Origin: Malacoraja senta
Taxonomy: Eukaryota
Assembly: GCA_038087875.1 (NCBI GenBank)
Contig: CM075988.1
Span: 23,934,001-23,998,000, forward strand
Length of the DNA stretch: 64,000 nt
Direction: 5' to 3'
The notes beneath the pieces are model-generated. The model was not told where the DNA came from. It did no database searches and saw nothing but the letters and a program-made list of their open reading frames with translations. Position 1 is the first letter of the stretch; each line of letters opens with the position of its first letter. This document shows positions 1 through 61,760 of the stretch, piece by piece. Position numbers and translations under genes: made by a program.

Positions 1-376
1 TTCGAAACCGAAACCTTTTTTCTCCAGAGATGCCGCCTTGACCCACTGAGTTACTGCGGTGCTTCGTGCCTATCTCCAGTTAGCTTTAATATGTATTTTA
101 GGAGGTGGTTGTAAAATATCGGTGCGTTTTCTTTCGGGGGGCCTTCAAGGATTTTATTCTCGATCTAGCGCTGAATCCAGAGCTGATGTTCTGGCTGCTG
201 GATGGGACATGGGAATAACGGGCTTTGAGATGCACGGCAAGCGGTTGTGAAGGGGCAAGTCTCGGAGCCCGAAGCCGATATTGCGCCTCGCAAATCATTG
301 ATGATCACATTGATCAGTGTTACTTGAGTTCCAAATCTTTTTGTCTTTCAAATTAACAACCTGGGTCTGGCAAAGG

Positions 377-1012: not shown

Positions 1013-1369
1013 TTTGACTTTTGAGGAAAATGGGTATACGTTGGTGTCAGGACGGTGAGATGTTGAGGCCACAGATGAATTGCTAACGCCAGGCAGCTAG
1101 CTGGCTCTCTTTAGCTTCACACTCACACACTGGAGTCTCTGGGAGCAGAGAATAGCACTCAAATCAGTCACATCAGGTAACGCAAAATTAATGAGCTGCT
1201 GTTTGCAAAACTCCGGGGCCTTGGTAATAGCTGTTTAGCACCTCCTGCCTGTTATGCCATCGATCGGAATGCCTCTGCTCTCCCTCCAAGCAGATCTTTA
1301 TCTAATTGGGCCCTGGTGTGATTCTGAAGGGGCACACACTCCTACGAAGAAAGGGAGGCTGAGAACAGA

Positions 1370-1849
1370 CCAGGTAGACATTGTTTCGCTGAACACCTTC
1401 ACTCGGTCCCCAGATCTCCCGGTTGCTGGACACTTTAATTCCCCCTGTTTAAGAAGGAACTGCAGATGCTGGAAAATCGAAGGTAGACAAAAGTGCTGGA
1501 GAAACTCAGCGGGTGCAGCAGCATCTATGGAGCGAAGGAAATAGGCAACGTTTCGGCCCGAAACCCTTCCGGGTTTCGTCCCGAAACGTTGCCTATTTCC
1601 TTCAGGGTTTCGTCCCGAAACGTTGCCTATTTCCTTCGCTCCATAGATGCTGCTGCACCCGCTGAGTTTTCTCCAGCATTTTTATCTCAGTTTAATTCCC
1701 CTTCCCATTCCCACACTGACCTATCTGTCCTGGGCCTCCTCCATTGTCAGAATGAGGCCACATGTAAACTGGAGGAACAGCACCTCATATTTCACTTGGG
1801 CAGCTTACAGCCCAGTGGTATGAATATTGATTTTTCCAACTTTAAGTAA
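1370..1849 (+). mobile_element. Penelope-like element GIY-YIG C-terminal fragment, interrupted by a hairpin PLE-derived insertion (1445-1690)
   Basis: PDLPVAGHFNSP...SHSHTDLSVLGLLHCQNEATCKLEEQHLIFHLGSLQPSGMNIDFSNF matches 53870-54115. TTTAATTCCCC is duplicated at 1434-1444 and 1691-1701. Confidence 0.75.
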
Positions 1850-2159
1850 CGCCTGCATTCCCTCCCTCTCCATCCCTCCCTACCCAAGTCGCACCAGCTT
1901 TCATTCCGACCTAGCTACGGCTAACAAACCCCTTTTCCTATATCACCGTTACCTTTTTGCATATCTTTCATTCATTTGTTCTATATCTCTCTCTCTACAT
2001 CACCGTCTATATCTCTCGTTTCACTTTCCCGTGAACTTCTGTGTGAAGAAGGGTCTCGACCCGAAATGTCACCCGTTCCTTCTCTTCAGAGATACGGGCC
2101 TGTCCCGCTGAGTTACTCCAGCATTTTGTGTCTACCTTCCTTCGGCTTAAGCCAGCAAA

Positions 2160-5840: not shown

Positions 5841-6058
5841 ACAATGTGAGCGTGAGGAAGACTGACTAGAATTGTACAGGGTTCTGGTGAGATGGCACCT
5901 GGTCTATTGTGTACAGGTCTGGCCTCCAGCCCTAAGGCTTCCTAAGATAGACTGCAGCAGAGCCTCACCAGACTGATTCACTGGTGGGTGTGTTTGCCAT
6001 TTGAGGAGACATTCAACCGGGCTGGACTATTCTCCTGAACGTTTAGAAGAATGAGAGG

Positions 6059-6161
6059 GTAGACACAAAATGCTGGAGTAACTCAGCGGGTGAGGCAGCA
6101 TCTCTGGAGAGAAGGAATGGGTGACGTTTCGGGTCGAGACCCTTCTTCAGACTCTGCCATG
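6059..6161 (-). mobile_element. Short Penelope-derived element carrying a hammerhead motif, 14-bp TSD
   Basis: AGAAGAATGAGAGG at 6045-6058 and 6162-6175. Intact motif on the minus strand at 6121-6152. Confidence 0.75.
6121..6152 (-). ncRNA. Putative minimal type I hammerhead ribozyme
   Basis: Minus strand reads GU-CUGAAGA-A-GGGU(CUCG)ACCC-GAAA-CG-UC-AC: CUGANGA and GAAA core boxes, stem II and a palindromic ACGU stem III. Confidence 0.65.
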
Positions 6162-17420: not shown

Positions 17421-17478
17421 AAAGGCATTCTTAAAACCTGCAAATCAACAAATCCAAACGATCATATAATGGATGTTG

Positions 17479-17826
17479 TTACCCTGTTACAGGGTGCAGC
17501 AATAAATTACTCCTTTTTGGGACTTTCATCAACATTTGTGTTGTTAATTCTAATATCAACGGATACCATGGCTGTGTAGGCCAATCTGGTACTACCAATA
17601 CCCTTGAAGCAGCATCTTGCCTGATTTTAAGCAAACATTGGCTTATGAGGAAGAAAGGTGGAAATATATATGAAAACATACCACCCCAATGTAGCGAGAA
17701 AGCATCAATCGCCACTGCTCCTGGATCTGGTTTCCATGAGACATATCTCGATAGCTGATGATTCAAGTCGATGTCGGGCATTCCAAATCTGATTACTATA
17801 TCATTGAATACCTCTTGATTCAACAT
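17479..17826 (-). pseudogene. DIRS Dam-like DNA methyltransferase domain
   Basis: FGMPDIDL...YVSWKPDPGAVAIDAFSLHW...YIFPPF...VVPDWPTQPWYP, the characteristic DIRS1 MT block following RNase H. Confidence 0.85.
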
Positions 17827-17829
17827 CCA

Positions 17830-18311
17830 TTCTTTATTATCATGGAACTTTCATGACCTGGTGTCTGCTATCGTGTTCATTCTACCTGGTAGATAGATAG
17901 CTGAAATCCAAATGTTCTTTTCAATACACCAAGACCAAAGTTGATTTAACTATTTTCTCACATGACACCGACTTAATTCCACCCATATCATTAATATAGG
18001 CAACTGCTGTTGTGTTTATTAATTTGAACTTGAACCTTCCTTTTAGTTGTGTTAGAACCACAAGCTTGGAGTCCATAGAAACCTCCTAAAAGCTCCAAAT
18101 AGGTAATTCCCCATGTCTGCAGTAACAATAACTCTTCCTGATTCCATCTGCCTCCGCAGCTAGATGTTAAGTCAGTTGCACCCCATCCTAATGCACTGGC
18201 ATCAGTTTGTAATATCATGGAAGGTTGTTCAATCAGCACTTTGCCTAAACTGCTTGAGACATGTAGAATCCACCACTGCAGATTAGAAACAGCATTTGTT
18301 GTTACTTGCAT
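17830..18311 (-). pseudogene. DIRS RNase H domain (frameshifted)
   Basis: LQWW...ILQTDASALGWGA...ITYLELLG, and ISAIYLPGRMNTIAD in another frame near 17870-17915. Confidence 0.85.
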
Positions 18312-18394
18312 GGTTCTTCTTCTTCTTCTTGTAGGATTCCGGCAGTGTAGACGCTGCTAAGCGTATTACTGCCCTCCACAGGTCAAAGTTTGAA

Positions 18395-21300: not shown

Positions 21301-22130
21301 ATAGTACAACAAGCTGCCTCATGAATCATGAGACTAATGGAAGTATTCCAACTATCTACAGAACCCTCACTATTAACCTCTCCAACTAAACTTTGAGCCT
21401 TCTCTTGGAATTTATCCCATTTGGCCTGATAAAGGTTATATCTAGGGACTTTCTTTTCCACTTCTCTCCTCAAATCCCTACCAAACCTACATACAATTGG
21501 ATAATGATCACTACCCAGTGTATATCTATCAATTACATCCCATTCACCAATTCTTGCTAAATTTGATGAAGCAATTGATAAATCTATGTGGCTGCAGGTG
21601 TTCCTCACAATATTATACCTAGACGGCCTTCCATCATTTAACAATACCAACTCATACTTGTCTAGAAATTCTTCAACAATAACACCATTTTTATCCCTGT
21701 GATCACTACCCCATAAAGGATTATGCACATTCAAATCTCCAATCCATATAACAGGACACCTTACCTTCTCCATTATCTCATCAAAACCTGACAATATCAA
21801 GGGTTGACAGGGGTTATAATAATTTATCACAATGATAGAATTCTGGCTGCTCCAAACTTCCACAGCCAAAACCTCAAGATTAGAATTAATATCAACTTTC
21901 CTATACTGCAACCCAGTCTTAACAAAAGTTGCACACCCCCCACCTGATCTATCAGACCTATCTAATTGCATACATTCATAACCTGGGATTACAAAATCTA
22001 GACAGGGCTTTAACCATGTCTCTTGGATACATATTAATTCTGGTGCTTCTTTAAATTCATCAACAAATCTCTTTAACTCTTGACCATTTCCAATCAGACT
22101 CCGGGCGTTCCATTGAAGTATATAAAACAT
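18395..22130 (-). CDS. LINE ORF2: AP endonuclease, RT, RNase H and CCHC finger, with one frameshift near 20320
   Basis: ILQWNARSL, ICIQETWL, GDLNVH, SDHYPI; SYRPIAL, FLDIEKAYD, GTPQGSVISP, FADDG; VFTDGSK, CSDS, WVPGHAGVRGNEQVD; CECGSNETVKHVFLEC. Confidence 0.9.
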
Positions 22131-22137
22131 GATGGTG

Positions 22138-23338
22138 TTAATGAGGATCACCATCATCCACCTCACTGACATACTCCATACTGCTAGCTCTCGACAACTG
22201 TGACCTCTCCATACACTGACTCTCTGTCATGTATTGATGCAACTTTTCTGGCAACTGCTTTACACTGAGGAACCTTTCAGCTGCCCCCACCACTAACCTG
22301 ATGATATCTGACCGGTTAGCTGCTTTCTTAGCTCCTACCAGCACATCAGAAACAAAAGACAGAAATGACTCCTTATTTAAAAATCAACATGTCAGATGGA
22401 AAAGCCGACGGCAAGTTTGGCACAGTGATCTGGCTTCCTAGCACCACTCTAGTCCCAGCGCTCACATCTCCGCGTTCTCTAGCCACCCTTTGAGCTGCCT
22501 CTGCATATGACACGTTGTTCTGATCCTTCACTTCCTGTACTCGCTTCGCCTGAACAAAGCGCTCACAACCATGAAACCCTGCTACATGGTCCCCATCACA
22601 GTTAGGGCACTTGGGAGCCTCTGCCTTGCAATTTTGTATTGCATGATCTCCACCGCACTTTGCGCACTTTCTTTTACCCCGACAAGACCCAGCAACATGT
22701 CCAAACCTCTGGCAGTTATAGCAGCGCAACGGTGGTTTAATGTACTCCCTCACTTGATACGCCATACTCCCAAGAAACACTCTCTGTGGCAGTACTCCAT
22801 CTTTGAACGTAAGCAGGACCGGCGGGTCCCTGACTCCATTCCTACTCTTAAATCTCACAACATCAATTACCTGGGCCCCCTTAACGTTTTCTAAGATCTC
22901 CTTCTCAGACAAGCCATCATACATCCCATACACCACTCCCTTTATTCCCTGCTCTCTTCCTCTAGGGACCAAACTCTCCACCTTGACCACCAACTTCCCC
23001 ACACCCCTAGCATCATTAAACTGTTTTCTGTCTTTGCAACAAACTCTTAACATCCCATTATACAGAATCTTGGCCTCAAAATCCCTACCTATCTGGCTCT
23101 CCAAAGCGGTGGTAATTTTTAATGGATTCACTGCTCTAAATCCTGCATCTCCTTGATTTGTTCCTTTAACTTTAAACAGCACAACGAATTCTTCAATAAT
23201 TCTAGTTCTCCTAACTTTACTTACTTCGTCTCCTGACACTTCGGGTCTTTCGCTCGATGCCTCTCTCTTAGAGCCCCCCTTTTCCTTACCTACAGTCTGC
23301 CACCCACCACCCTCAGAACCACCACTCCCTGAAGCCAT
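22138..23338 (-). CDS. LINE ORF1 gag-like zinc-knuckle protein, with one frameshift in a T-run near 22380
   Basis: PLRCYNCQRFGHVAGSC, CAKCGGDHAIQNC, CPNCDGDHVAGFHGC and SYAEA. Continues into ORF 22138..22344. Confidence 0.88.
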
Positions 23339-23470
23339 GGGCCTCTAGAATCTTTCTCCGTACGGTCGGTCATTAATTTCTACTCTTTTCTAATCTGCAA
23401 ATACGGTTCTCGTGGGAATATCACTTCAAAGAGAGCAGGTTTTCTTTGGCTGACCGCCCCGCCCATTTTC

Positions 23471-24330
23471 CTTGCTTGGTTCTATCAAAATGAGCAGCAT
23501 TTACTCTCAGTGCCTGTTCTTCTCTGCAGCTGTTGATAATGTAATGGTCCATACTGGACTGCTGGGAATCTACTAATTTTCCCAGTACTCGAGCCACCTG
23601 TCTGATTAGAGGTTTTTGCTCGTTTAACAGATTACTGCAATCTTTAATCAACTCCACCCTTTTTTCACTGGGCAAAGTAATTTGCATTTGGGCTGAATCA
23701 ATTGTGAACCCCAAATAATCAATCGAGGTACATGTTTTTAACCTTGATTTCTTTGGATGAATTTAGAAACCCCCAAACTTTCAAAAGTTTGATTTCATAA
23801 CTGCAACTGATGCTTCTGTTGACTGTTTTGTCCTTCCTATAATCAGGACATCATCCAGGTATGCCATTAGTACATGCCCCTGGCTCTCAGCAACCCCAGA
23901 ATTGATTTAAACAATTTTGTGAATATTCTGGGAGCGAACGTTAACCCATTAGGCAGAGCTTTGAACTGCCCTAATTGGTTCACCCATTTAAATTTTAAGA
24001 TACTTCATATCTTGCAAGTGAACAGACACTGAACAAAAGGATTCAGACTTGTCAAGTCTATAATCATCCTACATCCTTTTTTGATCGAGGGAATATATTT
24101 GACCCAAATTGGTGAATTTGGTAGACTGATTCTTCAATAACACCTTTTATATATAGGGTTTTGAAGCGCAGCTTGAACCTCCATTACTTCGCAAAGTGGA
24201 GAGTTCTGCTAGGAACATGCTGGACAGGCAAATCATAATTTGGATTGAATTCAATTCGAAATCCTTGTATATTATTCAGAATTACCACATCTGAAGTAAT
24301 CTTCTTCCAATGTTTATAGAAGAGACGTAA
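23471..24330 (-). pseudogene. DIRS reverse transcriptase (multiple frameshifts and deletions)
   Basis: VGGRLRLFYKHWKKIT...IQGFRIEF; QFKALPNGLTFAPRIFTK (~23910-23970); MAYLDDVLI (23841-23867); LGFTIDSAQMQITLP. Confidence 0.85.
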
Positions 24331-24399
24331 TCTGCCTCCAACTTTTGGACTTAATCCAGTTAGTATGTTCCCATGAGAACCAGGTCCACCTACCTCTTG

Positions 24400-25550
24400 A
24401 GTCATTTGAGTATTCTGAGATCCCTGGATTCTCCCGGAAGCACCACCACTGGTTCTTACTCCCGCTGCAGGCCGCCAGCTACGTCCCTGCGTTGATGAGC
24501 GACTTGGTCCTGGTCTAAGATCCGTATGACGTCTGAAAGGATACTTCCTCTTTACAGACTTTGTAACCATTGATGTTTTTATCAATCTTGTTTTCGCTTC
24601 ATCTTCCAACTCTTTAATACGTCTCCCGAGATCCTCTCCAAAGATTAAGTTGGGTAATTGTATATTACTTGGTTTGCAGAGTGCTGCGAATTTCGGATTC
24701 ATAGTAGGCCGTATAGCACTTTCCTCAGATAATTGATCTCGAAGTGGGTGCTGCATAGCAACCCCAGTGCTTCCTGATGCAACTTCGTCATCTCTTGGCT
24801 GTTATCTGCTATTCTGGTAAAAGCAGTTATTCCAGAACCCAGCAGCTTTAATATTCTCTGCAACTGATTCCAGATAATTTGGTTCACTGCTTCTGCTTTC
24901 AGCAACCCACAGTTACTTGGGGTCTCCTGCTTTCTTGCAGTCTCATCCATCTCTTGCTGTTCCAGCTGATGGTAAACCAAGTAATTTATTAAGGAGGCCA
25001 GTTCTTCTCCTAATGGCTCTCCTGACCCTGACGGGGCAGCGAATCCTACTGCCAGGGGTGGAACATCTGGCAGCTGCCATTCATCGCCTTGTACAGCCTC
25101 ACCGTCAGAGTCGGGGTCTGAAATCTCATGACCCGTAGCACGCTCCTCATCCCTGAGGGTGCATTCCATCAGCCCTGAGCTAGGTGCTATTAAGCTGCTT
25201 CCAGCAGCTTGGATTTCAGTACACTCCTTCCTGAGTGAACTTTGCTCCAACAGCCTATGTAAAAGGCTTTCTATTTGGGCAATACGCTCGAAAGCAGTAT
25301 CTAGCCCTGGAGCTACTTCCATTGCCTGGGACTCCCTCCGTGGGCCGTTGGGATTTAAACTTTGTCTTTTGCCCGACAGGCACTGACTGTGTTTTCACCA
25401 GCCCCAGGTCCACAGTCGCTATGCTCACCGCTGGCGACTGTACCGGGGTTTAGAGGCGGTTGGTCTCTAACCGCGGACTCCCGACTTTCCCGACTTTCTG
25501 TCGGCTGTGTCGCTCGCCTCTTCCCCCTGTCCGGTTTTTTTCCCCATGGC
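24400..25550 (-). pseudogene. DIRS gag-like ORF1 (fragmented)
   Basis: ORFs 24699..25322 and 24184..24756 (PSNCGLL...VNQIIW; LIFGEDLGRRIKEL) lie upstream of RT within the DIRS termini. Confidence 0.65.
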
Positions 25551-25609
25551 GTCTGTGGATAACTGGCGGGGTTCTTCACGTAGTCACTCACGTGACTCCG
25601 AAGTAAAAT

Positions 25610-27346
25610 GTTGTAAATTTCTATATGATCCCGCCACAATCTTCTAAATTCTAGCGAGTACAAACCGAGTCTATCCAGTCTTTCTTCATATGAAAGTCCT
25701 GACATCCCAGGAATCAGTCTGGTGAACCTTCTCTGTACTCCCTCTATGGCAAGAATGTCTTTCCTCAGATTAGGAGACCAAAACTGTACGCAATACTCCA
25801 GGTGTGGTCTCACCAAGACCCTGTACAACTGCAGTAGAACCTCCCTGCTCCTATACTCAAATCCTTTTGCTATGAATGCTAACATACCATTCGCCTTCTT
25901 CACTGCCTGCTGCACCTGCATGCCTACTTTTAATGACTGGTGTACCACGACACCCAGGTCTCGTTGCATCTCCCCTTTTCCTAATCGGCCACCATTCAGA
26001 TAATAGTCTACTTTCCTGTTTTTGCCACCAAAGTGGATAACCTCACATTTATCCACATTATACTGCATCTGCCATGCATTTGCCCACTCACCCAGCCTAT
26101 CCAAGTCACCTTGCAGCCTCTGAGCATCCTCCTCACAGCTAACACTGCCCCCCAGCTTTGTGTCATCCGCAAACTTGGATATGTTGCATTCAATTCCCTC
26201 GTCCAAATCATTAATAAATATCGTAAATAGCTGGGGTCCCAGCACTGAGCCTTGCGGTACCCCACGAGTCACTGCCTGCCATTGTGAAAAGGACCCGTTT
26301 ACTCCTACTCTTTGCTTCCTGTCTGCCAGCCTGTTCTCTATCCACATCAATACTGAACCCCCAATACCGTGTGCTTTAAGTTTGTATACTAATCTCTTAT
26401 GTGGGACCTTGTCGAAAGCCTTCTGAAAGTCCAGATATAACACATCCACTGGTTCTCCCTTATCCACTCTACTAGTTACATCCTCGAAAAATTCTATAAG
26501 AATCATCAGACATGATTTACCTTTCATAAATCCATGCTGACTTTGTCCAATGATTTCACCACTTTCCAAATGTGCTGCTATCCCATCTTTAATAACTGAT
26601 TCTAGCAGTTTCCCCACTACCGACGTTAGACTAACTGGTCTGTAATTCCCCGTTTTCTCTCTCCCTCCCTTTTTAAAAAGTGGGGTTACAGTAGCTACTC
26701 TCCAATCCTCAGGAACTACTCCAGAATCTAAAGAGTTTTGAAAAATTATCACTAATGGATCCACTATTTCTGGGGCTACTTCCTTAAGTACTCTGGGATG
26801 CAGCCTATCTGGCCCTGGGGATTTATCGGCCTTTAATCCATTCAATTTACCTAACACCACTTCCTGGCTAACCTGGATTTCACTCAGTTCCTCCATCTCA
26901 TTTGACCCCCGGTCCCCTGCTATTTCCGGCAGATTATTTATGTCTTCCTTAGTGAAGACAGAACCAAAGTAGTTATTCAATTGGTCTGCCATGTCCTTGT
27001 TCCCCATGATCAATTCACCTGTTTCTGACTGCAAGGGACCTACATTTGTTTTAACTAATCTTTTTCTCTTCACATATCTATAAAAGTTTTTGCAGTCAGT
27101 TTTTATGTTCCCTGCCAGTTTTCTTTCATAATCTATTTTCCCTTTCCTAATTAAGCCCTTTGTCCTCCTCTGCTGGACTCTGAATTTCTCCCAGTCCTCT
27201 GGTAGGCTGCTTTTTCTGGCTAATTTGTACGCTTCATCTTTTGTTTTGATTCTATCCCTGATTTCCCTTGTTATCCATGGATGCACTACCTTCCCTGATT
27301 TATTTTTTTGCCAAACTGGGATGAACAATTGTTGTAGTTCATCCAT
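25610..27346 (-). CDS. CR1 ORF2 (RT region, endonuclease missing), uninterrupted ~580 codons
   Basis: PWIT, FYRYVK, KSPGPDRLHPRVLKE, YLDFQKAFD, GVPQGSVLGP and FADDTKL; near-identical to ORF 9303..10535. Confidence 0.92.
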
Positions 27347-27369
27347 GCAGTCTTTAAATGCCTTCCATT

Positions 27370-28116
27370 GCGTATCTCCCTGTTCCTGCTCTCGCCAACA
27401 CGAGGAACTGGAAGCAAACCGGAGATAAACACCCTGGAGGTCCTGCTTTTCAGCATTTTTCCGAGCTCTCTAAAGTCACGCTGCAGAATATTCATCCCCT
27501 TCTTTCCGACATCGTTTGTGCCGACATGCACTACCACTTCCGGCTGTTCATCTTCGCCCTTGAGGATTTTCTGCACTCTGTCCATGACATCCTGGATCCT
27601 GGCACCAGGAAGGCAGCACACCATCCTCGAATCCCGTCTGTTGCCGCAAAAAAACCCTGTCCGTACCTCTCACAATGGAGTCTCCCACTACAATGGCGTT
27701 GGCTGACTTTGGCGTTTTTGGTTTTGGCTCAACAGCCCTATTCACATCGCAAGCCAGTCTGCCGCTCAGTGTTAAAACGTCTTCTGTCCCGACATCTTCT
27801 AAGTGGGTGAACCTGTTCACAAGAGGTACAACACCCGGGGACGTTTGCATTCCATGCTTCCCTCTCTTTCTCACTGTCTCCCACCTTCTCTCTTCCAGTA
27901 CCTTAGGGGTAACAATCTTACTGTAGGACTTGTCGAGGAACTACTCCGTTTCTCGGACAAACCCGAGGTCATCCACTTGCTTCTCCAGTTCCCCAACACG
28001 GTCCTTCAGGAGCTGTACCTGGATGCACTTGTCACATTTGTAGCAGCCAGAGGCACCAGCAGTGTCCTTGACCTCCCACATACTGCAAGCATCACACTGA
28101 ATCAGCTTGCCTGACA
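27370..28116 (-). pseudogene. CR1 ORF1 with an N-terminal Cys motif/coiled coil and SGNH esterase domain (frameshifted, 3'-deleted)
   Basis: IVVGDSIVRGTDR, VCCLPGARIQDV, VVVHVGTNDVG and FISGLLPVPR. An upstream CDACSMWE...CDKC motif on the minus strand near 28030-28100. Confidence 0.85.
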
Positions 28117-29665: not shown

Positions 29666-30169
29666 TCACTGCTGCACTGTGGAAATGCACAAACTGTGAG
29701 CTGCAGAAAGAAATAACACTCTGAATAATGACGTGCTAGTAAGTGAGATTTATTAGAGCGAGGTTAATGCTTAATATACCCGAGAATGATGCAGCGAGAA
29801 AAGCAGGAGAGGCAGAGGATTGCTGTTATAAGGAACATATTAAAATGATAAAAGGAATTATGTCCTTAAGGAGCTAGACACACAGAATCAGAGAATTGTT
29901 GAGGAGCAGAAGGCCAATTGGCCCAGTGAGTCTCCGCCAGGTCCCAATAGAGCAGTTGTCACTTCCATCCCCTGCTCATTTCTCACAGCGTTTCAAATTA
30001 TTCTCTGTTAAATGCCAGGCCAGTCACCTTCAGGAAGAATTGATTGATTGTGTTTCCCCCGCCCCTACAGGCAGCTTATACCGTGCAAAAGGTTTGCCAC
30101 AACCCCCCCCCCACCCCCCCACAACCCCCACCTTTGTCCCTTTCACCCTGAATTTCAGTCTGCCTTGGC

Positions 30170-30365
30170 CTACGCGATCTCCCAGTTGCCAAACACTTTA
30201 ACTCCCCCTCCCATTCCCACACTGACCTTTCTGTCCTGGGCCTCCTCCACTGTCAGAGTGCGGTCAAACACAAAGTGGAGGAACAGCACCTTATATTTCG
30301 CTTGGGCAGCGTACAACCCAGCGATAATATTATTGATTTCTCTAATTTCAAATATCTCTTGCATT

Positions 30366-30421
<56 letters not shown>

Positions 30422-30945
30422 TCTTCCCCCACGCTAGTCATCGTACTAGTTTCACTGTCGTCCTGCTTAGTTTCACTGTTTGTATCCACTCGTCATCACC
30501 TTTCCCACAGCCAACAATGGACCATTGTGGGCTCCACTTTTCCTCGATTATCGTTGCTGGCTTTGATTTGTTCCTTTCGTACCTTTCATTCATTTGTGTT
30601 TTGTACCTTTTTGTACCTCTCGTTTCCCTCTCCCCTGTACACAGATGTGTACAGCAATTCATTCTCCCCCCGCACAATTAAAGCATGGAATAACCTCCAC
30701 CCCACCATAGTTACCCAACCAGATGCAACTAAATTTAAGGGAGCTCTTTCTTCCCAAAAACCCTTTCTGGCTTAAGTCCTCCCTCCACCACCTCCAGTTT
30801 AAATTCCAATTTGGAATATTTTGGAGGACCAAGAAACCAAGAACCAAGACTCTCAGTCTGGATCTGAAACGTCACCCATCCCTTCTCTCCAGCGATGCTG
30901 CCTGACCTGCTGGGTTACTCCAGCATTTTTTGTCTACCTACTTTT
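30170..30945 (+). mobile_element. Penelope-like 3' fragment (GIY-YIG end and 3' UTR) with a (CT)n microsatellite and an inserted LINE tail
   Basis: EEQHLIFRLGSVQPSDNIIDFSNF; 3' UTR shared with other copies. Confidence 0.7.
30638..30849 (+). mobile_element. CR1/L2-group LINE 3' end with (ACCAAGA)n tail
   Basis: YSNSFSPRTIKAWNNL...KFKGAL. Inserted between cccctg and actctcagtctg of the PLE-derived repeat. Confidence 0.6.
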
Positions 30946-31269: not shown

Positions 31270-32490
31270 AGATTCACGAGGATGTTGCTGGGACTAGAGG
31301 GTGTGAGCAATAGGGAGAGGTTGAGCAGGCTGGGACTCCTTTCCTTGGAGCGCAGTAGGATGCGGGGGTGATCCTACAGAGGTGTACAAAATCATGAGAA
31401 CAATAGATCAGGTAGATGTACAGTCTCTCTTGCCCAGTGAAGGTGAATCGAGGACCAGAGGACATAGGTTTAAGGTGAAGGGGAAACAATTTAATAGAAG
31501 TCTGAGGGGTAACTTTTTCATACAAAGGGTGTATGGAACAAGCTGCCAGAGGAGGTAGTTGAGGCTGGGACTATCCCAACGTTTAAAAAAATGGATAGGA
31601 CAGGTTTGGAGGGATATGGACCAAATGCGGGCAGGTGGGTCTAGTGTAGACAATAGACAATAGATGCAGGAGTAGGCCATTCGGCCCTTCGAGCCAGCAC
31701 CGCCATTCAATGTGATCATGGCTGATCATCCACAATCACTACCCCGTTCCTGCTGTCTCCCCATATCCCCTGATTCCGCTATCTTTAAGAGCCCTATCTA
31801 GCTCTCTCTTGAAAGTATCCAGAGAACCGGCCTCCACCGCCCTCTGAGGCAGAGAATTCCACAGACTCACAACTCTCTGTGTGAAAAAGTGTTTCCTCGT
31901 CTCCGTTCTAAATGGCTTACTCCTTATTCTTAAACTGTGGCCCCTGGTTCTGGACTCCCCCAACATTGGGAACATGTTTCCTGCCTCTGGCGTGTCTAAA
32001 TTCTTAATAATCTTATATGTTTCAATAAGATATCCTCTCATCCTTCTAAACTCCAGACTATACAAGCCCAGCTGCTCCATTCTCTCAGCATATGACAGTC
32101 CTGCCATCCCGGGAATTAACCTTGTGAACCTACGCTGCACTCCCTCAGTAGCAAGAATGTCCTTCCTGAAATTAGGGGACCAAAACTGCACACAATACTC
32201 CAGGTATGGTCTCACTAGGGCTCTGTACAACTGCAGAAGGACCTCTTTGCTCCTATACTCAACTCCTCTTGTTATGAAGGCCAACATGCCATTCGCTTTC
32301 TTCACTGCCTGCTGTACCTGCATGCTTACTTTCATTGACTGATGAACAAGGACCCCCAGATCCCGTTGTACTTCCCTGACCCGAAACGTCACCCTGCCTG
32401 GAATTAACCTTGTGAACCTAGCTGGGACGGTGTGGGTAAGTTGGGTCGAAGGGTCTGTTTCCACGCTGTGTCGCTCTGTGATTCCATGAC
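31270..32490. mobile_element. CR1 (+) 3' fragment interrupted by a 5'-truncated CR1 (-) at 31648-32420
   Basis: ORF 31739..32464 CR1 C-terminus. The + copy resumes at ~32421 (gctgggac...gggtcgaagggtctgtttcc). Confidence 0.8.
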
Positions 32491-32969
32491 CAGTACGGAC
32501 AATAGCTTCATTAAGGGCAAGAAAATCACCTATTATTGACCTGGGCAGTGTTTACAATGAGGGCAACAAAGGGCAGTAATTTATCATGTGTTGATGAGGA
32601 ATTCCTTGAACAGGATTCTCGCTGTCTAGTGAGGAAAGATTTACTAATAGATCAGGTGTAGAATATTAGTGGTGGGTTATCCTGGGAATAGTTGTCATAA
32701 TATCATTAATTTTAGATGAATTTTGCAAAAGAGGAATTATCAATAAAAATGTTTAACAGGAGGAGGGCTAATTTCAGAAAATTGGATCTAGCGCAGTCCT
32801 CTACTCACACAGCAGGTGAATACCACAAAGATTGCTAGTTATTGGATGGCATTTTGGTGCGGTATGTTGCAGATGAGATGTTGTGCATTTGGTTTTCGCC
32901 ACCAGGCTGTTTAATGCATGAGTGAATGGAAAGATGTTCTCAAATTAAGCGCGCACCTTGGTTCGTTCA

Positions 32970-45322: not shown

Positions 45323-45532
45323 GTAGACACAAAAAGCTGGAGTAACTCAGCGGGACAGGCAGCATTTCTGGAGAGAAGGATTGGGTGACGTTTCGGGTTC
45401 GAGACCCTTCTTCAGACCCGTCCCCAAACGTCACCCATTCCTTCTCTCCAGAGATGCTGCCTGTTCCGCCGAGTTACTCCAGCTTTTTGTGTCTATCTTC
45501 GGTTTAAACCAACATCTGCAGTTCCTTCCTGC
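45323..45532. mobile_element. Fold-back Penelope-derived element with hammerhead motif and 17-bp TSD
   Basis: ACATATGTTCAGATGAG at 45306-45322 and 45533-45549. Inverted arms at ~45324-45394 and ~45426-45497. Confidence 0.8.
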
Positions 45533-46839
45533 ACATATGTTCAGATGAGAATTGCCTTTGTGCCAAAAGACAGATAAGGGGTAAAAAAAAAAAAGCCTCT
45601 GATATCAAATCAAAAGAACAATATTACGTTACATGGGATGAGCAGCCATGATCACATTGAATGGCGGTGCAGGCTCGAAGGGCCGAATGGCCTACTCCTG
45701 CACCTATTGTCTATTGTCTATTGTCTATTACCATGGCAGTGGGTGAGAGGGAGTGACATTTCAACCATCTGCCCATGTGGAGTACCTGACGGAGTTATTT
45801 GTTGACACTGTTGATAATTGTTTCTTTATTCACCTTGTTGGGGAGAGGACTTGAGAATAAAACCTTTCAGATTCAGGTTACACAATCTTTATACAACGTC
45901 CCTTTAAAGTATGCCACAGCTGCACATGTTCTCCAGAGAAGAACATGAAAGACAGTTATGCAACCAGGTGTCAAACCCGTACGCACACTGGAATATTTCA
46001 ATGATTGCATAAAAGAGCTAAAGGTTAAAGCAATTGGATCGGTGTAGAAAGCGATGTGGATGGAATAACCTGAAGGGTAGGTCTGACATCCTCCACAGAC
46101 TGGTTACAGTTTCAGTTTCGTTCAGTTTAGAGATACAGCACAGAAACAGGCCCTTCGGCCCACCGGGCCCACGCCAATGGGCCAATGACCTCTGGAGAAA
46201 AGGAATTGGTGATGTTTCGGGATAAGACCCATCTTCAGACTTTATTACCAAGTCTGAAGAAAGGTCTCGACCCGAAACGTCACCTATTCCTTTCTCTCCC
46301 GTGATGCTGCCTGACCCGGTGAGATCCTCCTGCTGTTTGTGTCGAACATTGAAGAGTGTGGTCTCTGGCCCTCCAAACTGGGGTGGTGGTGAGGAACTTC
46401 ATGTAAACCAGGGAACTGGTACCTGGGTGATGTTTCGGGACGTGCGTGGCCTTTCCTCAGTCTGAAGCAGGGTGTCGACCCGAAACGTCACCCATTCCTT
46501 CTCTCCCGAGATGCTGCCTGTCCCACTGAGTTACTCCAGCATTTTGTGTCTACCTTCGATTTAGACCAGCATCTGCAGTTCTTCCTACACAAACTGAAGG
46601 CACATTTCACATGGGCAATAGTGTGGGGAAATTTTATTCTGTACAGCATATTGAAAGAAAGGGGTTAGGAGGGAGCGATGGATCAGCCATGATTGAATGG
46701 CGGAGTAGACTTGATGGGCCGAAAGGCCTAATAATTACATCTCATAGTAAGTGGTGGGCTAGTCAAGGTTGCAATGTGAATATATTGCTTCACTGTAAAA
46801 GGCAGCATGGTTTGGAATTTGCTAGATCTGGGCACGGAG

Positions 46840-50312: not shown

Positions 50313-51549
50313 CCAGAGATGTTGCCTGACTCGCTGAGTTCCTGCAGCTTTTTATGTCCATCTTCGTAAACCAACGTGCAGTTATTTCCTACATCATTTG
50401 TCGAGAGCTCAGTAACTGTCGGCAGGCTGTTCCACGAACGCGTCGTGGTGGCACAACCCTGTCCTTCATTCCCAGAGGTGGGGGAAGTCAAGTCTTAGAT
50501 AATCTTCAGGTGACACCAGGAGTTTCAGACTAAATGATACACATACACCATCTTGCATTCCCACTTTGATAGAGGGATTCACACACCATTTTAGAATTGT
50601 GTTTGGATCCTTGACATTATAGCTCTTTGTTGATTTTTAGTATATGTGACATTAGGAATTGCTAGGTGTGGGACATCCTTCAGGAGTTTAGTTTAGACCG
50701 AAGATAGACACAAAAAAGCTGGAGTAACTCAGTGGGACAGGCAGCGTCTCTGGAGAAAAAGGAATAGGTGACGTTTCAGGTCGAAACCCTTCTTCAGACT
50801 GGGAGTCAGGGGAAAGGGAAACAAGAGATATAGACGATGATGTAGAGAGATATAGAACAAATGAATGAAGGAAATGCAAAAAAGTGACGATGATAAAGGA
50901 AACGGGCCACTGTTAGTTGTTTAGTTTTGTTTATTGTTGACTTGTGGTGATAATAGGCAATACATACCCACTGAGTTACTTCAGCTTTTTGTGTCTATCA
51001 GTCTAAACCAAACTCCTGAAAGATGTCCCTGACTAGTCTGAAGAAGGGTCTCGACCCGAAACATCACCCATTCCTTCTCTTCAGAGATGTCTGTCCCATT
51101 GAGTTATTCCAGCATTTTGTGTCTATTCTCACACAAACAAGAACCAGTCTTCAATTCAGGACAGAGGATGAATGCACACCATTAACTGCAGAAAGAGGCA
51201 TCTCAGTTCAAGGCTAAATGAAGATAGTTGTGGGTGACTGGACTCCCAACAGAGGTGGCTTGAATATTCAGCAGCGTCTTGCCTGCCTGAGATGTGCTCT
51301 CATTGCAAATATGTAATTCCACTTGTCTACACTCAAAATGTTGAAGTAAAATATGCGTGGAACTACAGAACATGCATTAATCACCTACTGTTAACACTCA
51401 CAGTGTTGGAAGTAAATTATGTAATTGGAACTATTGAAACTGCATTTAATCACCTACTGTTATTTTGTGTTCAGAGTACTAAACTTCAACATAGCCTGAG
51501 TTTGGACAGATGCTTCATAGATTCCACCATGAATGCTTTTGCTAAATAA

Positions 51550-52763: not shown

Positions 52764-53097
52764 TGGGTCTCTAATGTCCCACTTACGCGATTTTTTTCGG
52801 CGACTTGCCGGCACCCGTCATAATCGCAGCAGGTCGCCGATAAATGTTCAACATGTTGAAAATCCATCGGCGACCAGAACAAGGTACGACTCTTTGGGCG
52901 ACTACTCACGACCATACAGGCTTCAGCCGGGGTGTCACCTGTATGGTCGTGAGTCGTCTCCTAGACGCCTAAAGAGTCGTAGCGTCTTTCTGGTCACCGC
53001 TGAAAATGTCAACATGTTGAAAAATTTCGGCGACCTGCAATGACCTATGACGGGTGGCGGCAGTCGCCGAGGAAGTCGCGTAAGTGGGACAGGCCCA
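52764..53097. mobile_element. PIF/Harbinger-type MITE (CACTTACGCGA family)
   Basis: tgtcccacttacgcga ... tcgcgtaagtgggacaggccca followed by TAA. Confidence 0.8.
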
Positions 53098-53642
53098 TAA
53101 CTCTCCCACCAAAAACCCTGGGTCTCTAACTCTCCTCCCTCCCAACCCTCCTCTCACCCACGCAGTGGTCGACCATGGGTTAAACTTGGGATCTTCTGCC
53201 ACTCCATTCAGTGTCTGTCTGGATACATCTATCGAGCTTGTGTACTTGTAAAAAGATATATTATAATATAGTTGCCACTGACTCGAATTCAATCTTTAAA
53301 TCTCCTTTTGATTCACTCGCAGAAAATAGCTGTTGAAGAAAAACCACTTTCAATGAAAAGGGGAGCTGCCACAGTTATTTGAAAGCTGATACAAGCGCTC
53401 TTTGATCCCAGAGGTGAAACAACATTGTAGACTGAGCCGCCCCCACACTCACGCAGCTTGGTTGGCGGCTCATGGGAACAGGAAGCTTAGCATAACAATG
53501 AGGCTCTAATTTAGCTGGTGATAAATGTAGCGTTGCCCAATAATTGACTCCAGTGCCTTGTCTTTTCCCCTTGTTAAACACCTCATGTTGGGAAGATGGA
53601 CAAAAAAAGCTGGAGTAACTCATCGGGTCAGACAGCATGTTC

Positions 53643-54115
53643 TTTAAGAAGGAACTGCAGATGCTGGAAAATTGAAGGTAGACAAAAGTGCTGTAGAAAC
53701 TCAGCGGGTGCAGCAGCATCTATGGAGCGAAGGAAATAGGCAACGTTTCGGGTCGAAACCCTTCTTCAGACTGATGTAGGATGGAGGGGGGGGGGGAGAC
53801 GAAAGGAAAAAGGAAGAGGAGGAGCCCGAGGGCTGAGGGAGAGCTGAGAAGGGGAGGAGACAGCAAGGGCTACCGGAAATTGGAGAATTCAATGTTTATG
53901 CTGCTAGGGTGCAGACTGCCCAAGCGGAATATGAGGTGCTGCTCCTCCAATTTCCGGTGGTGCTCACTCTGGCAATGGAGGAGGCCCAGGACAGAAAGGT
54001 CTGATTCAGAATGGGAGGGGGAGTTGAAGTGCTGAGCCACTGGGAGATCAGGTTGGTTAATGCGGACCGAGCGGAGGTGTTCGGCGAAACGATCGCCAAG
54101 CCTATGCTTGGTCAT
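53643..54115 (-). mobile_element. Penelope-like element 3' end: GIY-YIG C-terminus, 3' UTR, hammerhead motif and tail
   Basis: ORF 53870..54115 TKHRLGDRFAEHLRSVR...PVAQHFNSPSHS...KLEEQHLIFRLGSLHPSSINIEF. Hammerhead core at 53741-53771 on the same strand. Confidence 0.85.
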
Positions 54116-54325
54116 CTCTGGGGAAAAGGAATAGGTGACGTTTCAGACTGAAGAAGGGCCTCGACCCGCATCTCTCCAGAGATGCTGCCTGACCCGCTGA
54201 GTTACCCCAGCTTTTTGTATCTAACTTTGGTTTAAACCAGCATCTGCAGTTCCTTCCTACACACCTCGTGTTGGGAACTGGAGCGAAAGGAGAGAACAAG
54301 AATCGCTCGAAGGTTTGCTGAAACA

Positions 54326-54465
54326 ATCACCTTCTATATCTCTCTTTTCCCTCTCCCCTGACTCTCAGTCTGAAGAAGGGTCTCGACCCGAAACGTCACC
54401 CATTCCTTCTCTCCAGAGATGCTGCCTGTCCCGCTGAGTTACTCCAGAATTTTGTGTCTATCTTC
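54326..54465 (+). mobile_element. Short PLE-derived element with intact hammerhead motif, 12-bp TSD
   Basis: TTTGCTGAAACA at 54314-54325 and 54466-54477. Confidence 0.75.
54368..54399 (+). ncRNA. Putative minimal type I hammerhead ribozyme
   Basis: GT CTGAAGA A GGGT CTCG ACCC GAAA CG TC AC. Confidence 0.65.
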
Positions 54466-54654
54466 TTTGCTGAAACATGAATATGGCTAACTAATAATAC
54501 ATGACATTTTTTAATAAATGTTACATGGAAACGTGTCATTAATTTTAATAAATTTTATTTCACAAGAGCCACTCTCAATAAATAAATAAATACAGATTCT
54601 ACAACAGTCCCTTCTCTATCTTGCTTCAATTTGGGTGAAGTGGAACCAACCTTG

Positions 54655-55113: not shown

Positions 55114-55423
55114 AACCCCTGTTCCACGGTACGAGTTCATTCCAAGAGCTCTCCCGAGTTTGCCCTGATTCGAACTCGGTGATTTACGGTAATGGCCGCT
55201 CGTCGGTACTCGGGACTCTCGTGGACATTTTTCAACATGTTGAAAGATCTTCACGAGTCTTCCCGTGCTTACCTGCCGTTAGCGAGTCTTCCCGAGTACC
55301 TGCCGTTAGCGTTACGAGCCGCTAAGAGACGTCGCCGAGCTCCGACATACATTCTCTGTGCTTACCACAAGTTTGATTTTTTTTTAAACTCGGGGGAGCT
55401 CTTGGAATGAACTCGTACCGTGG
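55114..55423. mobile_element. PIF/Harbinger-type MITE (right TIR clipped)
   Basis: Reverse orientation of the 34358 family. Confidence 0.8.
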
Positions 55424-59590: not shown

Positions 59591-60775
59591 GTGGGTTGAT
59601 AATCTCAACAAAGAATACACCACTGCGGACTGGAAGAGCGTTTTCAAGTCCCAGTGTTAAGTGATTGGGAGTCCACCAGCAAATAGCTGCATACACATGT
59701 ATTTCAACGAGAAGCAAATATTATATTACAGTGGCAATGAGATACTTGGACTGAAGGTGTCTGGTATTTTAAGTCTCTGGAGAAACCATCACAAGATGGA
59801 AAAATGGTCTTGCAGAGCTAAGCACTGAGTGATCCCAAAACAAGGACCCTGGTGAGCTATCCCAGAGTGACAGCTGACAGGACGACAATCGGATAGTGTG
59901 GTATTGGTAAGAGGTGTGGGAGTCGTACGGTCTCACTATCAAGGGGAGTGGAGGAACATTTTAAAATCTGTTCACACAACCAGTTCATTGGCGTGTTGGC
60001 ACGGTGGCTGTGCCATTGTGTGGGTCCATGGAAAAGGTGTGGTGTGTGGTGGGAACTCTGTATGGGAACCTGTAGCAACCTCACACACACATATATTTCA
60101 AGACTGGTCCGAAGGAGGCTTCTCGCCTATTCCTTCGCTCCATAGATGCTGCCTCACCCGCTGAGTTTCTCCAGCTTTTTGTCTACCTTCAATTTTTCCA
60201 GCATCTGCAGTTCTTCCTTAAACATATATATATATATATATTTATGTGTGAGTATGTTCAAGTTCAAGTGAGTTTATTGTCATGTGTCCCTGATAGGACA
60301 ATGAAATTCTTGCTTTGCTTCAGCACAACAGAATATAGTAGGCATTGACTACAAAACAGATCAGTGTGTCCATATACCATTATATAAATATATACACACA
60401 TGAATAAATAAACTGATAAAGTGCAAATAACAGATAATGGGCTATTAATGTTCATAGTTCATAATGTACATATGTGTACATATCCCCACACGGAACTTTT
60501 TTCTCGTTGATAATGTTGTTTCCGGTGTACTATGTTTACATATTCTGTGGTGCTGCTGCAAGGATGTCATTGTTCTATCTGGGACATATTCGGTTTGTGG
60601 GAATTTACAGGACCTGGGATGCTACTATTGGGATGTTCAGTTTAACATGGTGTTTGTAGTGGAGAGAATGAGGAATATGAACAGATTTATGTGCAGGAAG
60701 GAACGGCAGATGCTGGTTTAAACCGAAGATAGACACAAAATGCTGGAGTAACTCAGCGGGACAGGGGGCATCTAA

Positions 60776-61295
60776 AGGGCCTGTCCCACTTTCACGAGGT
60801 AATTCACGAATTCTCCCGAGTTTTTCCCCTGATTCAAACTCGCAGAATGTTCGTAACGAGTCTGTAGGAGTTGGTAGATATATCGTAGCGGCTCGTTATG
60901 CCAGCCGTAGGTACTCGTGACATCAGGTAAGTCGGGATGGGTTTTTTCCAGCCCGATAAAAAATGTCCACGAGTAAAAAAAGTCGGGATGAAAAAAATGG
61001 CAACTTTTTACTCGTAGTTAGTTCGTGGGCAGACGGTAGTTGGCCGTGAGGGTGGTCGTAGATATTCGTGGGTACTCGTAGATATTCGTGGGTACTCGTA
61101 GCTCGGCAACTGGACAGAGGAAAAAATGGTGAGTGGAAAAAAAAGCTTAAGTCAACATCAGCACGTGACCTCTGTCACTCCAGTTCGTGGAAGGCCGTAG
61201 GATCCGTAGATTACCAAAATCTTGATTATTTTTTTTTAGGTCCTTTAAACTCGGCAGAGGTTTTTGGATTAAGTCGTGAAAGTGGGACAGGCCCT
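60776..61295. mobile_element. PIF/Harbinger-type MITE (520 bp), TAA TSD, inserted in a PLE-derived repeat
   Basis: AGGGCCTGTCCCACTTTCACGA ... TCGTGAAAGTGGGACAGGCCCT, with TAA at 60773-60775 and 61296-61298. Confidence 0.88.
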
Positions 61296-61760
61296 TAAGG
61301 AGAGAAGGAATGGGTGACGTTTTGGGTCGAGACCCTTCTTGAGACGGATGTCGAGGGAGATACAAGGAATGCATTGCACTGTGGAGGCAATTTCAAGTGC
61401 TCCAAAGATATCTTGAAGTATGCGGTATGAACGTTGATTTCTCTCATTTCAAATAACTCCTGCATTCCCTCCCTCCCCTCCTCTCTCCCAACCCTCCTCC
61501 CCCCCCCATCCTGCTCGTCCTACCAGTTCCATTGTTTGTATCCCTGTGAGGTGTTGAAAGAGGACAAAGGGCATGTACATCAAGGGAAATGTAGAATAGA
61601 TCATTGTTGGCAGGGAGATAGCAGCCACAACAAAGCAAGCAATACATTCATGTTTGTCACATGTGTGAACGTGTGGATGTCCCTGGGGAATTCAATAATA
61701 TATTGTATCATTTCACAAATGGAAAGTCTTGCATGCTGGCATAACACAGGGAGACAGTCC

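What the first reader, a model, noticed from the sequence alone, without database searches (positions are those of the whole stretch)
53643..54477. Abundant short mobile elements carry a hammerhead-ribozyme core and derive from a Penelope 3' end
Seen: the motif GT-CTGAAGA-A-GGGT-CTCG-ACCC-GAAA-CG-TC-AC recurs at 54368-54399 (+) and 6121-6152 (-). Variants lie near 2043, 4431, 14375, 45385, 46252, 46460, 50768, 51037, 53741 and 54147. At 53643-54115 a variant lies directly downstream of a GIY-YIG C-terminal ORF on the same strand, tying it to a Penelope-like element. Copies of only 100-250 bp have their own TSDs (6045/6162, 14 bp; 54314/54466, 12 bp; 45306/45533, 17 bp). Established: CUGANGA...GAAA...UH is the hammerhead core, and Penelope-like elements carry minimal type I hammerheads whose palindromic stem III can fold as dimers. 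Inference: this is a very high-copy, non-autonomous, ribozyme-bearing (retrozyme-like) family mobilised by Penelope RT/GIY-YIG. A repeat library could easily file it as an anonymous SINE.
Basis: partly seen in the sequence, partly recalled or inferred. Interest (0 to 1): 0.72.

Follow-up and report, generated by a model that had tools for sequence, protein, structure and literature searches.

The report
Short Penelope leftovers with hammerhead motif
These very abundant 100-250 bp insertions in a skate-like genome are the end pieces of a known jumping gene (a Penelope-like element) that carry its usual small hammerhead-ribozyme motif; the one unusual feature is that many begin at the same base just before the motif, which may mark where the element's RNA starts.

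Summary
Observation confirmed: 14 near-exact motif copies (0 in 100 shuffles), three TSDs exact, GIY-YIG C-terminus upstream. The motif fits the published minimal Penelope (PLE) hammerhead consensus, but helix I is 2 bp, helix II is not the predicted fold, covariation is not above shuffles, and cleavage is untested. The copies are not retrozymes as defined (no tandem units) and show no separate lineage: each subfamily has ORF-bearing partners. They show the known PLE anatomy: two 3' ends about 35 nt apart (tail), head-to-head pairs with one tailed arm (6 of 6), TSDs, variable 5' truncation. The less ordinary feature is a fixed 5' boundary at A/G of TCAGTC just before the core (5 of 33 arms; also top loose ends among 582,908 public contigs), none at the cut site. 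TCAGTC is an initiator match with downstream promoter-like motifs in register. Best reading: dead-on-arrival by-products of an autonomous Neptune-type PLE, many being run-off copies from internal priming to the RNA start, made from uncleaved RNA. The scan noted similar 5' clustering on another genome. New member of a known kind.

The parts
53593..54262 (.). Subfamily-A head-to-head PLE unit: tail-less left arm on minus (53593-53640 plus 54114-54144), tailed right arm on plus (54145-54262) with a broken hammerhead; split by the nested B fragment
   Evidence: flanking duplication 53578-53594 / 54261-54277 with one mismatch read, 9-bp exact core
53641..54113 (-). Subfamily-B 5'-truncated PLE copy nested in the A unit: GIY-YIG C-terminus, 3' UTR, hammerhead motif, tail
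53870..54112 (-). GIY-YIG endonuclease C-terminal 80 codons plus stop, Neptune-type by relatives
53740..53771 (-). Minimal hammerhead motif, subfamily B (GU CUGAAGA A GGGU UUCG ACCC GAAA CG UU GC); predicted cut between 53742 and 53741; A+1 at 53772
   Evidence: consensus
53643..53675 (-). PLE 'tail' (long 3' end) of the B copy
   Evidence: definition
54326..54465 (+). Subfamily-A single-arm copy, 5' boundary 41 nt upstream of +1 in the 3' UTR, short (tail-less) 3' end
54314..54325 (+). Left TSD (12 bp), repeated at 54466-54477
54365..54370 (+). TCAGTC: initiator consensus match (A+1 = 54367); also reads as a CAG|T splice acceptor; site of the fixed 5' boundary
54368..54399 (+). Minimal hammerhead motif, subfamily A (GU CUGAAGA A GGGU CUCG ACCC GAAA CG UC AC); predicted cut between 54397 and 54398; CGACC at +18..+22 and GTCA at +29..+32 overlap it
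6058..6153 (-). Subfamily-A short copy starting at +1, tail-less, 14-bp TSD (6045/6162), 8 extra bases at the 5' junction
45323..45532 (.). Subfamily-A head-to-head unit: tail-less minus arm from +2, tailed plus arm from about +18; 17-bp TSD (45306/45533)
46190..46343 (.). Head-to-head unit with both arms starting at +1, 9-nt spacer; left arm cut short by another insertion
1360..2140 (+). ORF-bearing subfamily-A copy (GIY-YIG end at 1846, UTR, hammerhead variant at 2041), with a subfamily-B head-to-head unit nested at 1446-1690 (11-bp TSD 1434/1691)
30155..30944 (+). Older ORF-bearing subfamily-A copy, interrupted at about 30640-30850, hammerhead partly deleted

Best explanation
The short elements are insertion by-products of an autonomous Neptune-type Penelope-like element (PLE), not a separate retrozyme. 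Shown: each copy is the element's terminal module (pLTR) ending at one of two fixed 3' points, about +98 and +132 from the A of TCAGTC, with TSDs; head-to-head units pair one tailed with one tail-less arm; 5' ends are variable but pile up at +1/+2, just before the hammerhead, and not at its cut site. Inferred: the two 3' points are the two internal reverse-transcription start sites shown for the anole PLE; +1 is the start of the element's transcript (initiator TCA+1GTC with downstream promoter-like motifs in register); priming in the module at the 5' end of that RNA runs off the RNA end after about 100 or 135 nt and gives the fixed short copy, while priming in the downstream module gives ordinary 5'-truncated copies reaching into the UTR and ORF. 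Nicks on both strands, each extended, give the head-to-head units, possibly joined through the near-palindrome TCAG-T-CTGA. The template is uncleaved, so the hammerhead is slow, protein-dependent or vestigial here. The short copies probably lack the downstream RNA that the protein binds and are dead on arrival.
For: Two 3' ends and tail; loose ends behind 54263 (1997 contigs) and 54464/5 (1150, 1836) in run X3. One tailed arm in 6 of 6 scorable head-to-head units, as described for PLEs. 5' boundary: 5 of 33 arms at +1/+2 against 0.25 per nt downstream (Poisson P 1.9e-4, about 6e-3 after allowing for 32 windows), 0 of 33 at +31..+33; in X3 the loose ends before 54367 (1279) and 54368 (1188) are among the six best-supported and have unalignable A+T-rich flanks (agreement 0.31), and summed depth falls from 39.9M to 2.9M upstream of the site. 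ORF-bearing copies lie among short copies of both subfamilies (A 91%, B 95-98% to short arms). Initiator, CGANC(+18..22) and 4 of 5 DPE positions(+28..32) in register in 5 copies from three subfamilies. Anole PLE: internal priming at two sites matching the tail, both strands nicked and extended, 172 nt of ORF needed, hammerhead inactive without protein and dispensable for insertion (PMC11167929). Penelope and Chlamys have their TSS in the pLTR.
Against: No RNA test: the raw-read runs did not hold the organism (4 and 0 reads) and X15 is contigs, probably DNA. No full-length element was found, so the sequence beyond the tail and an upstream pLTR are unseen. Loose-end table shows only 12 of 2028 rows; positions +3/+4 also appear in joints (38 and 28 contigs), and part of the depth drop is due to subfamily-specific UTRs. 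The DPE match misses +28, CGG(+27..29) is absent, a common B variant (A+20>G, 13.6M of 19.0M depth) breaks CGANC, DPE is rare in humans, and GUC at +29..31 is also the hammerhead triplet. In D. virilis the TSS lies well upstream of the hammerhead with an intron between. In Adineta, pLTRs alone sufficed for mobilisation in trans.
Confidence: 0.55

Rival explanations
1. A true non-autonomous (SINE-like) family: short +1..+98/+132 copies keep an internal promoter, are transcribed, and are re-mobilised in trans by the PLE protein.
For: Fixed 5' and 3' ends as in a SINE; short copies outnumber ORF-bearing ones (3 ORF fragments in 27 loci); pLTRs sufficed in trans in Adineta; non-autonomous Chlamys elements exist.
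Against: No short-only clade: ORF-bearing copies fall among short arms in both subfamilies (22 arms, weak supports); copies starting at +1 lose the TC of the initiator; the anole protein needs RNA downstream of the priming sites, which short copies lack.
Confidence: 0.18
2. Ordinary 5' truncation with a hot spot: reverse transcriptase pauses or switches template at the near-palindrome TCAG-T-CTGA or at the base of the hammerhead; +1 is not an RNA end.
For: -2..+7 is self-complementary except the centre; the 54144/54145 junction uses it; Adineta pLTRs have palindromes at inverted junctions; many other 5' ends lie at +7..+65 (16 of 33).
Against: Single-arm copies also start at +1/+2 (6153, 13773); the predicted folds put no strong helix at +1; the coverage step persists upstream.
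Confidence: 0.13
3. CAG|T at -1..+3 is a 3' splice site; copies come from RNAs spliced onto it, and shared exon-end letters (AG or G) make them seem to start at +1/+2.
For: Long pyrimidine tracts precede TCAG in all three subfamilies; the D. virilis PLE intron ends at helix I; by eye about 26 of 56 published PLE hammerheads have YAG in the printed upstream context, against 5 of 56 with strict TCAGTY; all 5 +1/+2 arms have G at +2.
Against: No shared upstream exon: loose-end consensus agreement 0.31; at 45417 and 46241/46251 at most 1 and 9 bases lie upstream; donors would have to be heterogeneous.
Confidence: 0.1
4. One reading: a retrozyme that self-cleaves as a dimer, circularises and is copied by PLE proteins.
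For: Motif fits the minimal consensus with palindromic ACGU; retrozymes are proposed to derive from PLE pLTRs (preprint 10.64898/2026.07.22.740005); 215 X3 contigs join a tail end to a copy starting at -2..+4, spacer unknown.
Against: No tandem whole units; no copy begins or ends at the cut site; helix II pair probability at most 0.01 in 6 of 6 intact constructs, active-like dimer -12.7 against -23.3/-21.0 kcal/mol for the free cofold.
Confidence: 0.04

Closest known systems
Insertion units of EN+ Penelope-like elements, Neptune clade (Craig et al. 2021 PMC8557442; Arkhipova et al. 2013 PMC3846280)
   Same: C-terminal GIY-YIG, hammerhead in the pLTR, heavy 5' truncation, inverted 5'-truncated arm, 30-40 bp tail on one end only, TSDs.
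   Different: A fixed 5' boundary just before the hammerhead and a large excess of pLTR-only copies were not in the passages I read; density (8% of this window) is high.
Minimal type I hammerheads of metazoan PLEs (Cervera and de la Pena 2014, PMC4209133)
   Same: U-rich upstream, CUGANGA, one extra base before G10.1, G10.1-C11.1, GAAA, palindromic CG at 15.2/16.2, NUH; 4-bp helix II as in the Acropora Neptune motif.
   Different: Helix I is 2 bp (the low end: 2 bp also in D. virilis, Culex, Oikopleura rows); no cartilaginous fish among the 56 rows of Fig. S3.
Anole Poseidon PAc in vitro (Frangieh et al. 2024, PMC11167929)
   Same: Two 3' end points matching the tail; copies span an uncleaved hammerhead.
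   Different: Different clade; in PAc the ORF begins at stem II, whereas no shared reading frame was evident across A and B here.
Non-LTR retrozymes (Cervera and de la Pena 2020 PMC7229834; preprint 10.64898/2026.07.22.740005)
   Same: Short, non-coding, type I hammerhead, related to PLE pLTRs, TSDs longer than 4 bp.
   Different: Defined by tandem units and, in the 2020 paper, canonical hammerheads and circular RNAs; here dispersed monomers and head-to-head pairs with a minimal motif.

Membership tests
Minimal PLE hammerhead | CUGANGA + extra base + G10.1-C11.1 + GAAA + palindromic 15.2/16.2 + NUH | tested here: met
   against the consensus; triplet GUC in A, GUU in B
Minimal PLE hammerhead | Helix I closing the core | tested here: inconclusive
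   2 bp only (U-A/G-C, or U-G/G-C), 96.9% of cells paired; pair probability about 0; 2-bp helix I occurs in published rows
Minimal PLE hammerhead | Helix II supported by covariation | tested here: inconclusive
   90.5% paired, 1 two-sided change, no measure above shuffles (173-248 of 500 as high); one common one-sided U-A to U-G change in X3; not the predicted fold
Minimal PLE hammerhead | Self-cleavage as dimer or with protein | not testable with these tools
   needs in vitro assay; no RNA reads
Rfam hammerhead families | Score above gathering threshold | tested here: not met
   0 hits in the window, none among E<=10 hits at 53600-54500; the clearer minimal motif in L005 is also missed, so this says little
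EN+ PLE, Neptune clade | C-terminal GIY-YIG domain on the same strand upstream of the pLTR | tested here: met
   3 copies; fragments give no Pfam hit themselves (0 of 3) but full relatives do (5 of 5 GIY-YIG, E 9e-5 to 2e-3)
EN+ PLE, Neptune clade | RT domain and CX2-5CxxC linker motif | tested here: inconclusive
   absent from the window fragments; present in the closest relatives; motif defines Neptune/Nematis
EN+ PLE, Neptune clade | Tail, inverted 5'-truncated arm, TSD, 5' truncation | tested here: met
EN+ PLE, Neptune clade | Full-length pLTR-ORF-pLTR partial tandem | not testable with these tools
   no genome held; none in the window
Non-LTR retrozyme | Head-to-tail tandem units each with a hammerhead | tested here: not met
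   none among 33 TRF rows; 215 of 582,908 X3 contigs have tail-to-start joints of unknown spacer
Non-LTR retrozyme | Circular RNA or ends at the cut site | not testable with these tools
   no usable RNA run; 0 of 33 DNA arms begin at the cut site
Non-autonomous PLE derivative | Lineage separate from ORF-bearing copies | tested here: inconclusive
   no separate clade among 22 arms, supports weak
SINE | Pol III head and A-rich or repeat 3' tail | not tested
   no poly(A) or repeat tail seen; no Pol III box search was run

The most novel reading that the evidence does not exclude
The hammerhead region of this PLE doubles as an internal initiator/MTE/DPE-type Pol II promoter, transcription starts one base before helix I, and hundreds of thousands of short genomic copies are run-off ('strong-stop'-like) cDNAs from internal priming near the RNA 5' end, inserted singly or in head-to-head pairs primed at the two sites on opposite strands. 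The genome would then record the first step of PLE transposition, and a jump of this cDNA to the RNA 3' end would explain pLTRs and partial tandems without ribozyme cleavage.
Probability: 0.3. Interest if true: 0.7.

Novelty: new member of a known kind. Interest (0 to 1): 0.4.

Why it matters
The element class, its hammerhead and its insertion anatomy are published, so the finding as worded is a new host for a known system plus an annotation point: the 100-250 bp pieces should be filed as PLE pLTR fragments. The value is mechanistic. How PLEs make pLTRs, tails and inverted arms, and what the hammerhead does, is still open (PMC11167929, PMC8557442). A family this abundant, with fixed ends at both sides, makes those questions testable with one assembly and one CAGE library.

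Tried and rejected
Whole-genome analysis: no genome is held. Rfam: no hammerhead hit. Pfam on the three window fragments: 0 of 3. Related loci: viral contigs 0 of 38 candidates; metagenomes 5 of 99, all distant, only L005 with a clear downstream minimal hammerhead; exact motif absent from viral and prokaryote collections. Raw-read runs X22 and X23: 4 and 0 reads, no test. A conserved 'off-state' hairpin (core pairing with the pyrimidines after the cut site) is the lowest-energy fold in A, but z is -0.44 to +0.20 in 7 window constructs: rejected as evidence. Lower divergence of core and helices (3-6%) than loop II and downstream (13-15%) in 15 rows: rows were picked for having a core, subfamily differences and CpG inflate the rest, dead copies decay neutrally; not used. 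Cap-derived extra G at the 5' end: 2 of 5 arms, not distinguishable from chance. The first promoter-register search had a spacing error and returned nothing; corrected. Copies at 51035 and 61345 looked like +1/+2 starts by eye but align further upstream and were counted as -11 and -15. Lunse et al. 2017 could not be read; it and the closed preprint supplements, and supplement file 1 of PMC4209133, may list elasmobranch motifs.

Full report
OBSERVATION. The 32-nt motif is identical at 54368-54399(+) and 6121-6152(-), and the listed variants are all present. A 28-nt pattern with up to 3 mismatches gives 14 matches in the window and none in 100 shuffles. The three TSDs are exact at 14, 12 and 17 bp. 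54112-53873(-) translates to a PLE GIY-YIG C-terminus. Its 25 longer relatives at E<=0.001 (of 70 candidates) are led by skate, ray and shark proteins at 64-84% identity; the five scanned hit GIY-YIG and three also RVT_1, mostly below the curated cut-offs, and they carry a CxxxxCxxC linker, which marks Neptune/Nematis (PMC8557442, passages). The host is skate-like by these hits; no genome is held.

ANATOMY. With hand-set intervals the family occupies 27 loci and 5,241 bp, 8.2% of the window. If the window were typical, a 2.2-Gb skate genome (size from preprint 10.1101/2025.06.08.657570, passages) would hold of the order of a million loci; this is an extrapolation from one window. One public run (X3, contigs, probably DNA, a related organism) laid 582,908 contigs on 53450-54560; the tool warns that its depths are no copy number. 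Twenty runs from 12 studies hold the stretch or part of it. Three subfamilies are seen (A, B, older C). Three copies reach the ORF: 1360-2140 (A), 30155-30944 (A) and 53641-54113 (B). In a tree of 22 arms the ORF-bearing copies fall among short arms, with weak supports.

3' ENDS. Copies end at about +98 or about +132 (numbered from the A of TCAGTC). X3 shows the same two points (loose ends behind 54464/54465 and 54263). This is the 30-40 bp PLE tail (PMC8557442, passages; PMC3846280, passages), which in the anole element lies between two internal reverse-transcription start sites (PMC11167929, parts 1-2 of 4 read). Of 7 head-to-head units, 6 have exactly one tailed arm; the seventh has one arm cut by another insertion and cannot be scored (the 3-mismatch score of the 45323 left arm comes from its TSD).

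5' ENDS. Boundaries were taken from local alignments to window copies and curated conservatively; the arm at the window edge, the arm at the N gap and a 15-bp fragment at 46430 were left out, and two copies split by later insertions were counted once. Of 33 arms, 5 start at +1/+2, 16 at +3..+65, 7 at -62..-1, 5 further up, and 0 at +31..+33, the predicted cut site. Against the downstream rate, P is 1.9e-4, about 6e-3 after allowing for 32 windows. In X3, among the six best-supported loose ends are 54367 (+1; 1279 contigs) and 54368 (+2; 1188), with unalignable A+T-rich flanks (agreement 0.31); 54365 (1476) has the pyrimidine-rich UTR of sister subfamilies. Summed depth is 39.9M at 54362-54399 and 2.9M at 54324-54361. 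Only 12 of 2,028 loose-end rows are shown, and some were not counted. X15 shows a similar picture but is probably DNA; X22 and X23 gave 4 and 0 reads.

THE HAMMERHEAD. The motif matches the published consensus for minimal PLE hammerheads at every position (PMC4209133, parts 1-2 of 4 and supplement file 2 parts 1-2 of 3 read). No cartilaginous fish is among its 56 rows; a search of its readable supplements for shark, Leucoraja and Callorhinchus found none, one file not searched. Helix I is 2 bp, the low end of the published range. Against activity: helix II has pair probability at most 0.01 in 6 of 6 intact constructs, and the active-like dimer (-12.7 kcal/mol; about -6 with helix I) is far above the free cofold (-23.3 and -21.0). 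Pair counts on 25 arms are not above shuffles. A distant PLE from a metagenome (L005) has the same core with a 5-bp helix I and a different helix II, both in its lowest-energy fold, which supports hammerhead ancestry of the core. Published minimal motifs cleave weakly and only as multimers (review PMC6765202, passages), and the anole one only with protein and is dispensable for insertion. Activity here is untested.

WHAT +1 IS. TCAGTC matches the initiator consensus TCA+1GTY; CGACC at +18..+22 matches the revised MTE half CGANC; CGTCA at +28..+32 matches 4 of 5 DPE positions; CGG at +27..+29 is absent (consensus from PMC5580651, passages). The three-part match occurs 5 times in the window, all in this family and across A, B and C. 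Penelope and Chlamys have their start site in the pLTR (PMC2377424, passages). Against: the match was noticed after the fact, a common B variant breaks CGANC, and the same letters read as a splice acceptor after a pyrimidine tract, as in D. virilis where the intron ends at helix I. By eye, 5 of 56 published rows have TCAGTY and about 26 have YAG in the printed upstream context. -2..+7 is also a near-palindrome.

MECHANISM. Shown: terminal-module copies with two 3' ends, TSDs, asymmetric head-to-head pairs, a 5' pile-up before the core, none at the cut site, ORF-bearing partners. Inferred: internal priming at two sites; run-off to an RNA end at +1 gives the fixed short copies; priming in the downstream module gives longer truncated copies; both-strand priming gives head-to-head units; the template is uncleaved; short copies are dead on arrival. 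Confidence: PLE-derived insertion units about 0.95; not a tandem retrozyme about 0.85; the whole model 0.55. Rivals: non-autonomous short masters 0.18, pause or template-switch hot spot 0.13, splice acceptor 0.10, retrozyme cycle 0.04.

COMPARISON. It works like a canonical EN+ PLE insertion unit and meets the tested features of that kind (guide PMC8969392, passages). It fails the tandem criterion of non-LTR retrozymes (PMC7229834, passages; preprint 10.64898/2026.07.22.740005, parts 1-3 of 5 read, supplements closed): none of 33 tandem rows is an array of whole units, and only 215 X3 contigs show tail-to-start joints, spacer unknown. That preprint already links retrozymes to pLTRs and reports them in its one chondrichthyan genome. 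Eight full-text searches gave no paper describing this skate family or a fixed 5' boundary at the hammerhead; Repbase, Dfam, subscription journals and Lunse et al. 2017 were not available, so absence from print is not established. PMC12602865 (passages) had nothing relevant. Two unchecked notes of this scan on other genomes reach similar readings; my reading was written down before I saw them, and they are not independent evidence.

VERDICT. Real, very abundant, PLE-derived, with a credible but untested and structurally weak hammerhead motif. New member of a known kind; interest 0.40, carried by the fixed 5' boundary and the tests it opens.

Noticed in passing
window 60775-61298: An inverted-repeat element with ends GGGCCTGTCCCACTT splits one PLE unit (60690-60773 plus 61299-61360); looks like a Harbinger-type MITE (label recalled). 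Similar elements near 52780-53097 and 55120-55410.
   Followed up: no
window 1446-1690 and 53641-54113: Subfamily-B units are nested inside subfamily-A copies in two places, suggesting B is younger or that PLEs insert into PLEs.
   Followed up: partly
window 50670-50700(-) and 50997-51030(+): Two arms share a non-standard 3' extension instead of the usual tail, forming an inverted pair; the plus arm is followed about 40 nt later by another copy, the closest thing to a head-to-tail pair in the window.
   Followed up: no
window 18395-23344(-): Long ORFs (644, 647 and 323 aa) that look like an APE-RT-RNase H non-LTR element with an upstream CCHC protein, I/Nimb-like (label recalled).
   Followed up: no
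window 16464-18356(-) and 23421-25394(-): Fragments that look like a tyrosine-recombinase retroelement (DIRS-like), interrupted by the element above (label recalled).
   Followed up: no
window 7547-8284, 9246-10535, 14668-15432, 25355-27469, 31739-32551: Several CR1/L2-type reverse transcriptase ORF fragments (label recalled).
   Followed up: no
L005:620-690: Distant metagenomic PLE with a minimal hammerhead that has the same core, a 5-bp helix I, and TCAGTC 12 nt further upstream; no DPE match in register by eye.
   Followed up: partly
proteins P0003, P0004, P0016, P0024, P0025: Annotated skate and shark gene models (receptor-transporting protein 3-like, myocardin isoform, DCC isoform) include pieces of this PLE endonuclease; probably annotation read-ins, possibly exonisation.
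   Followed up: no
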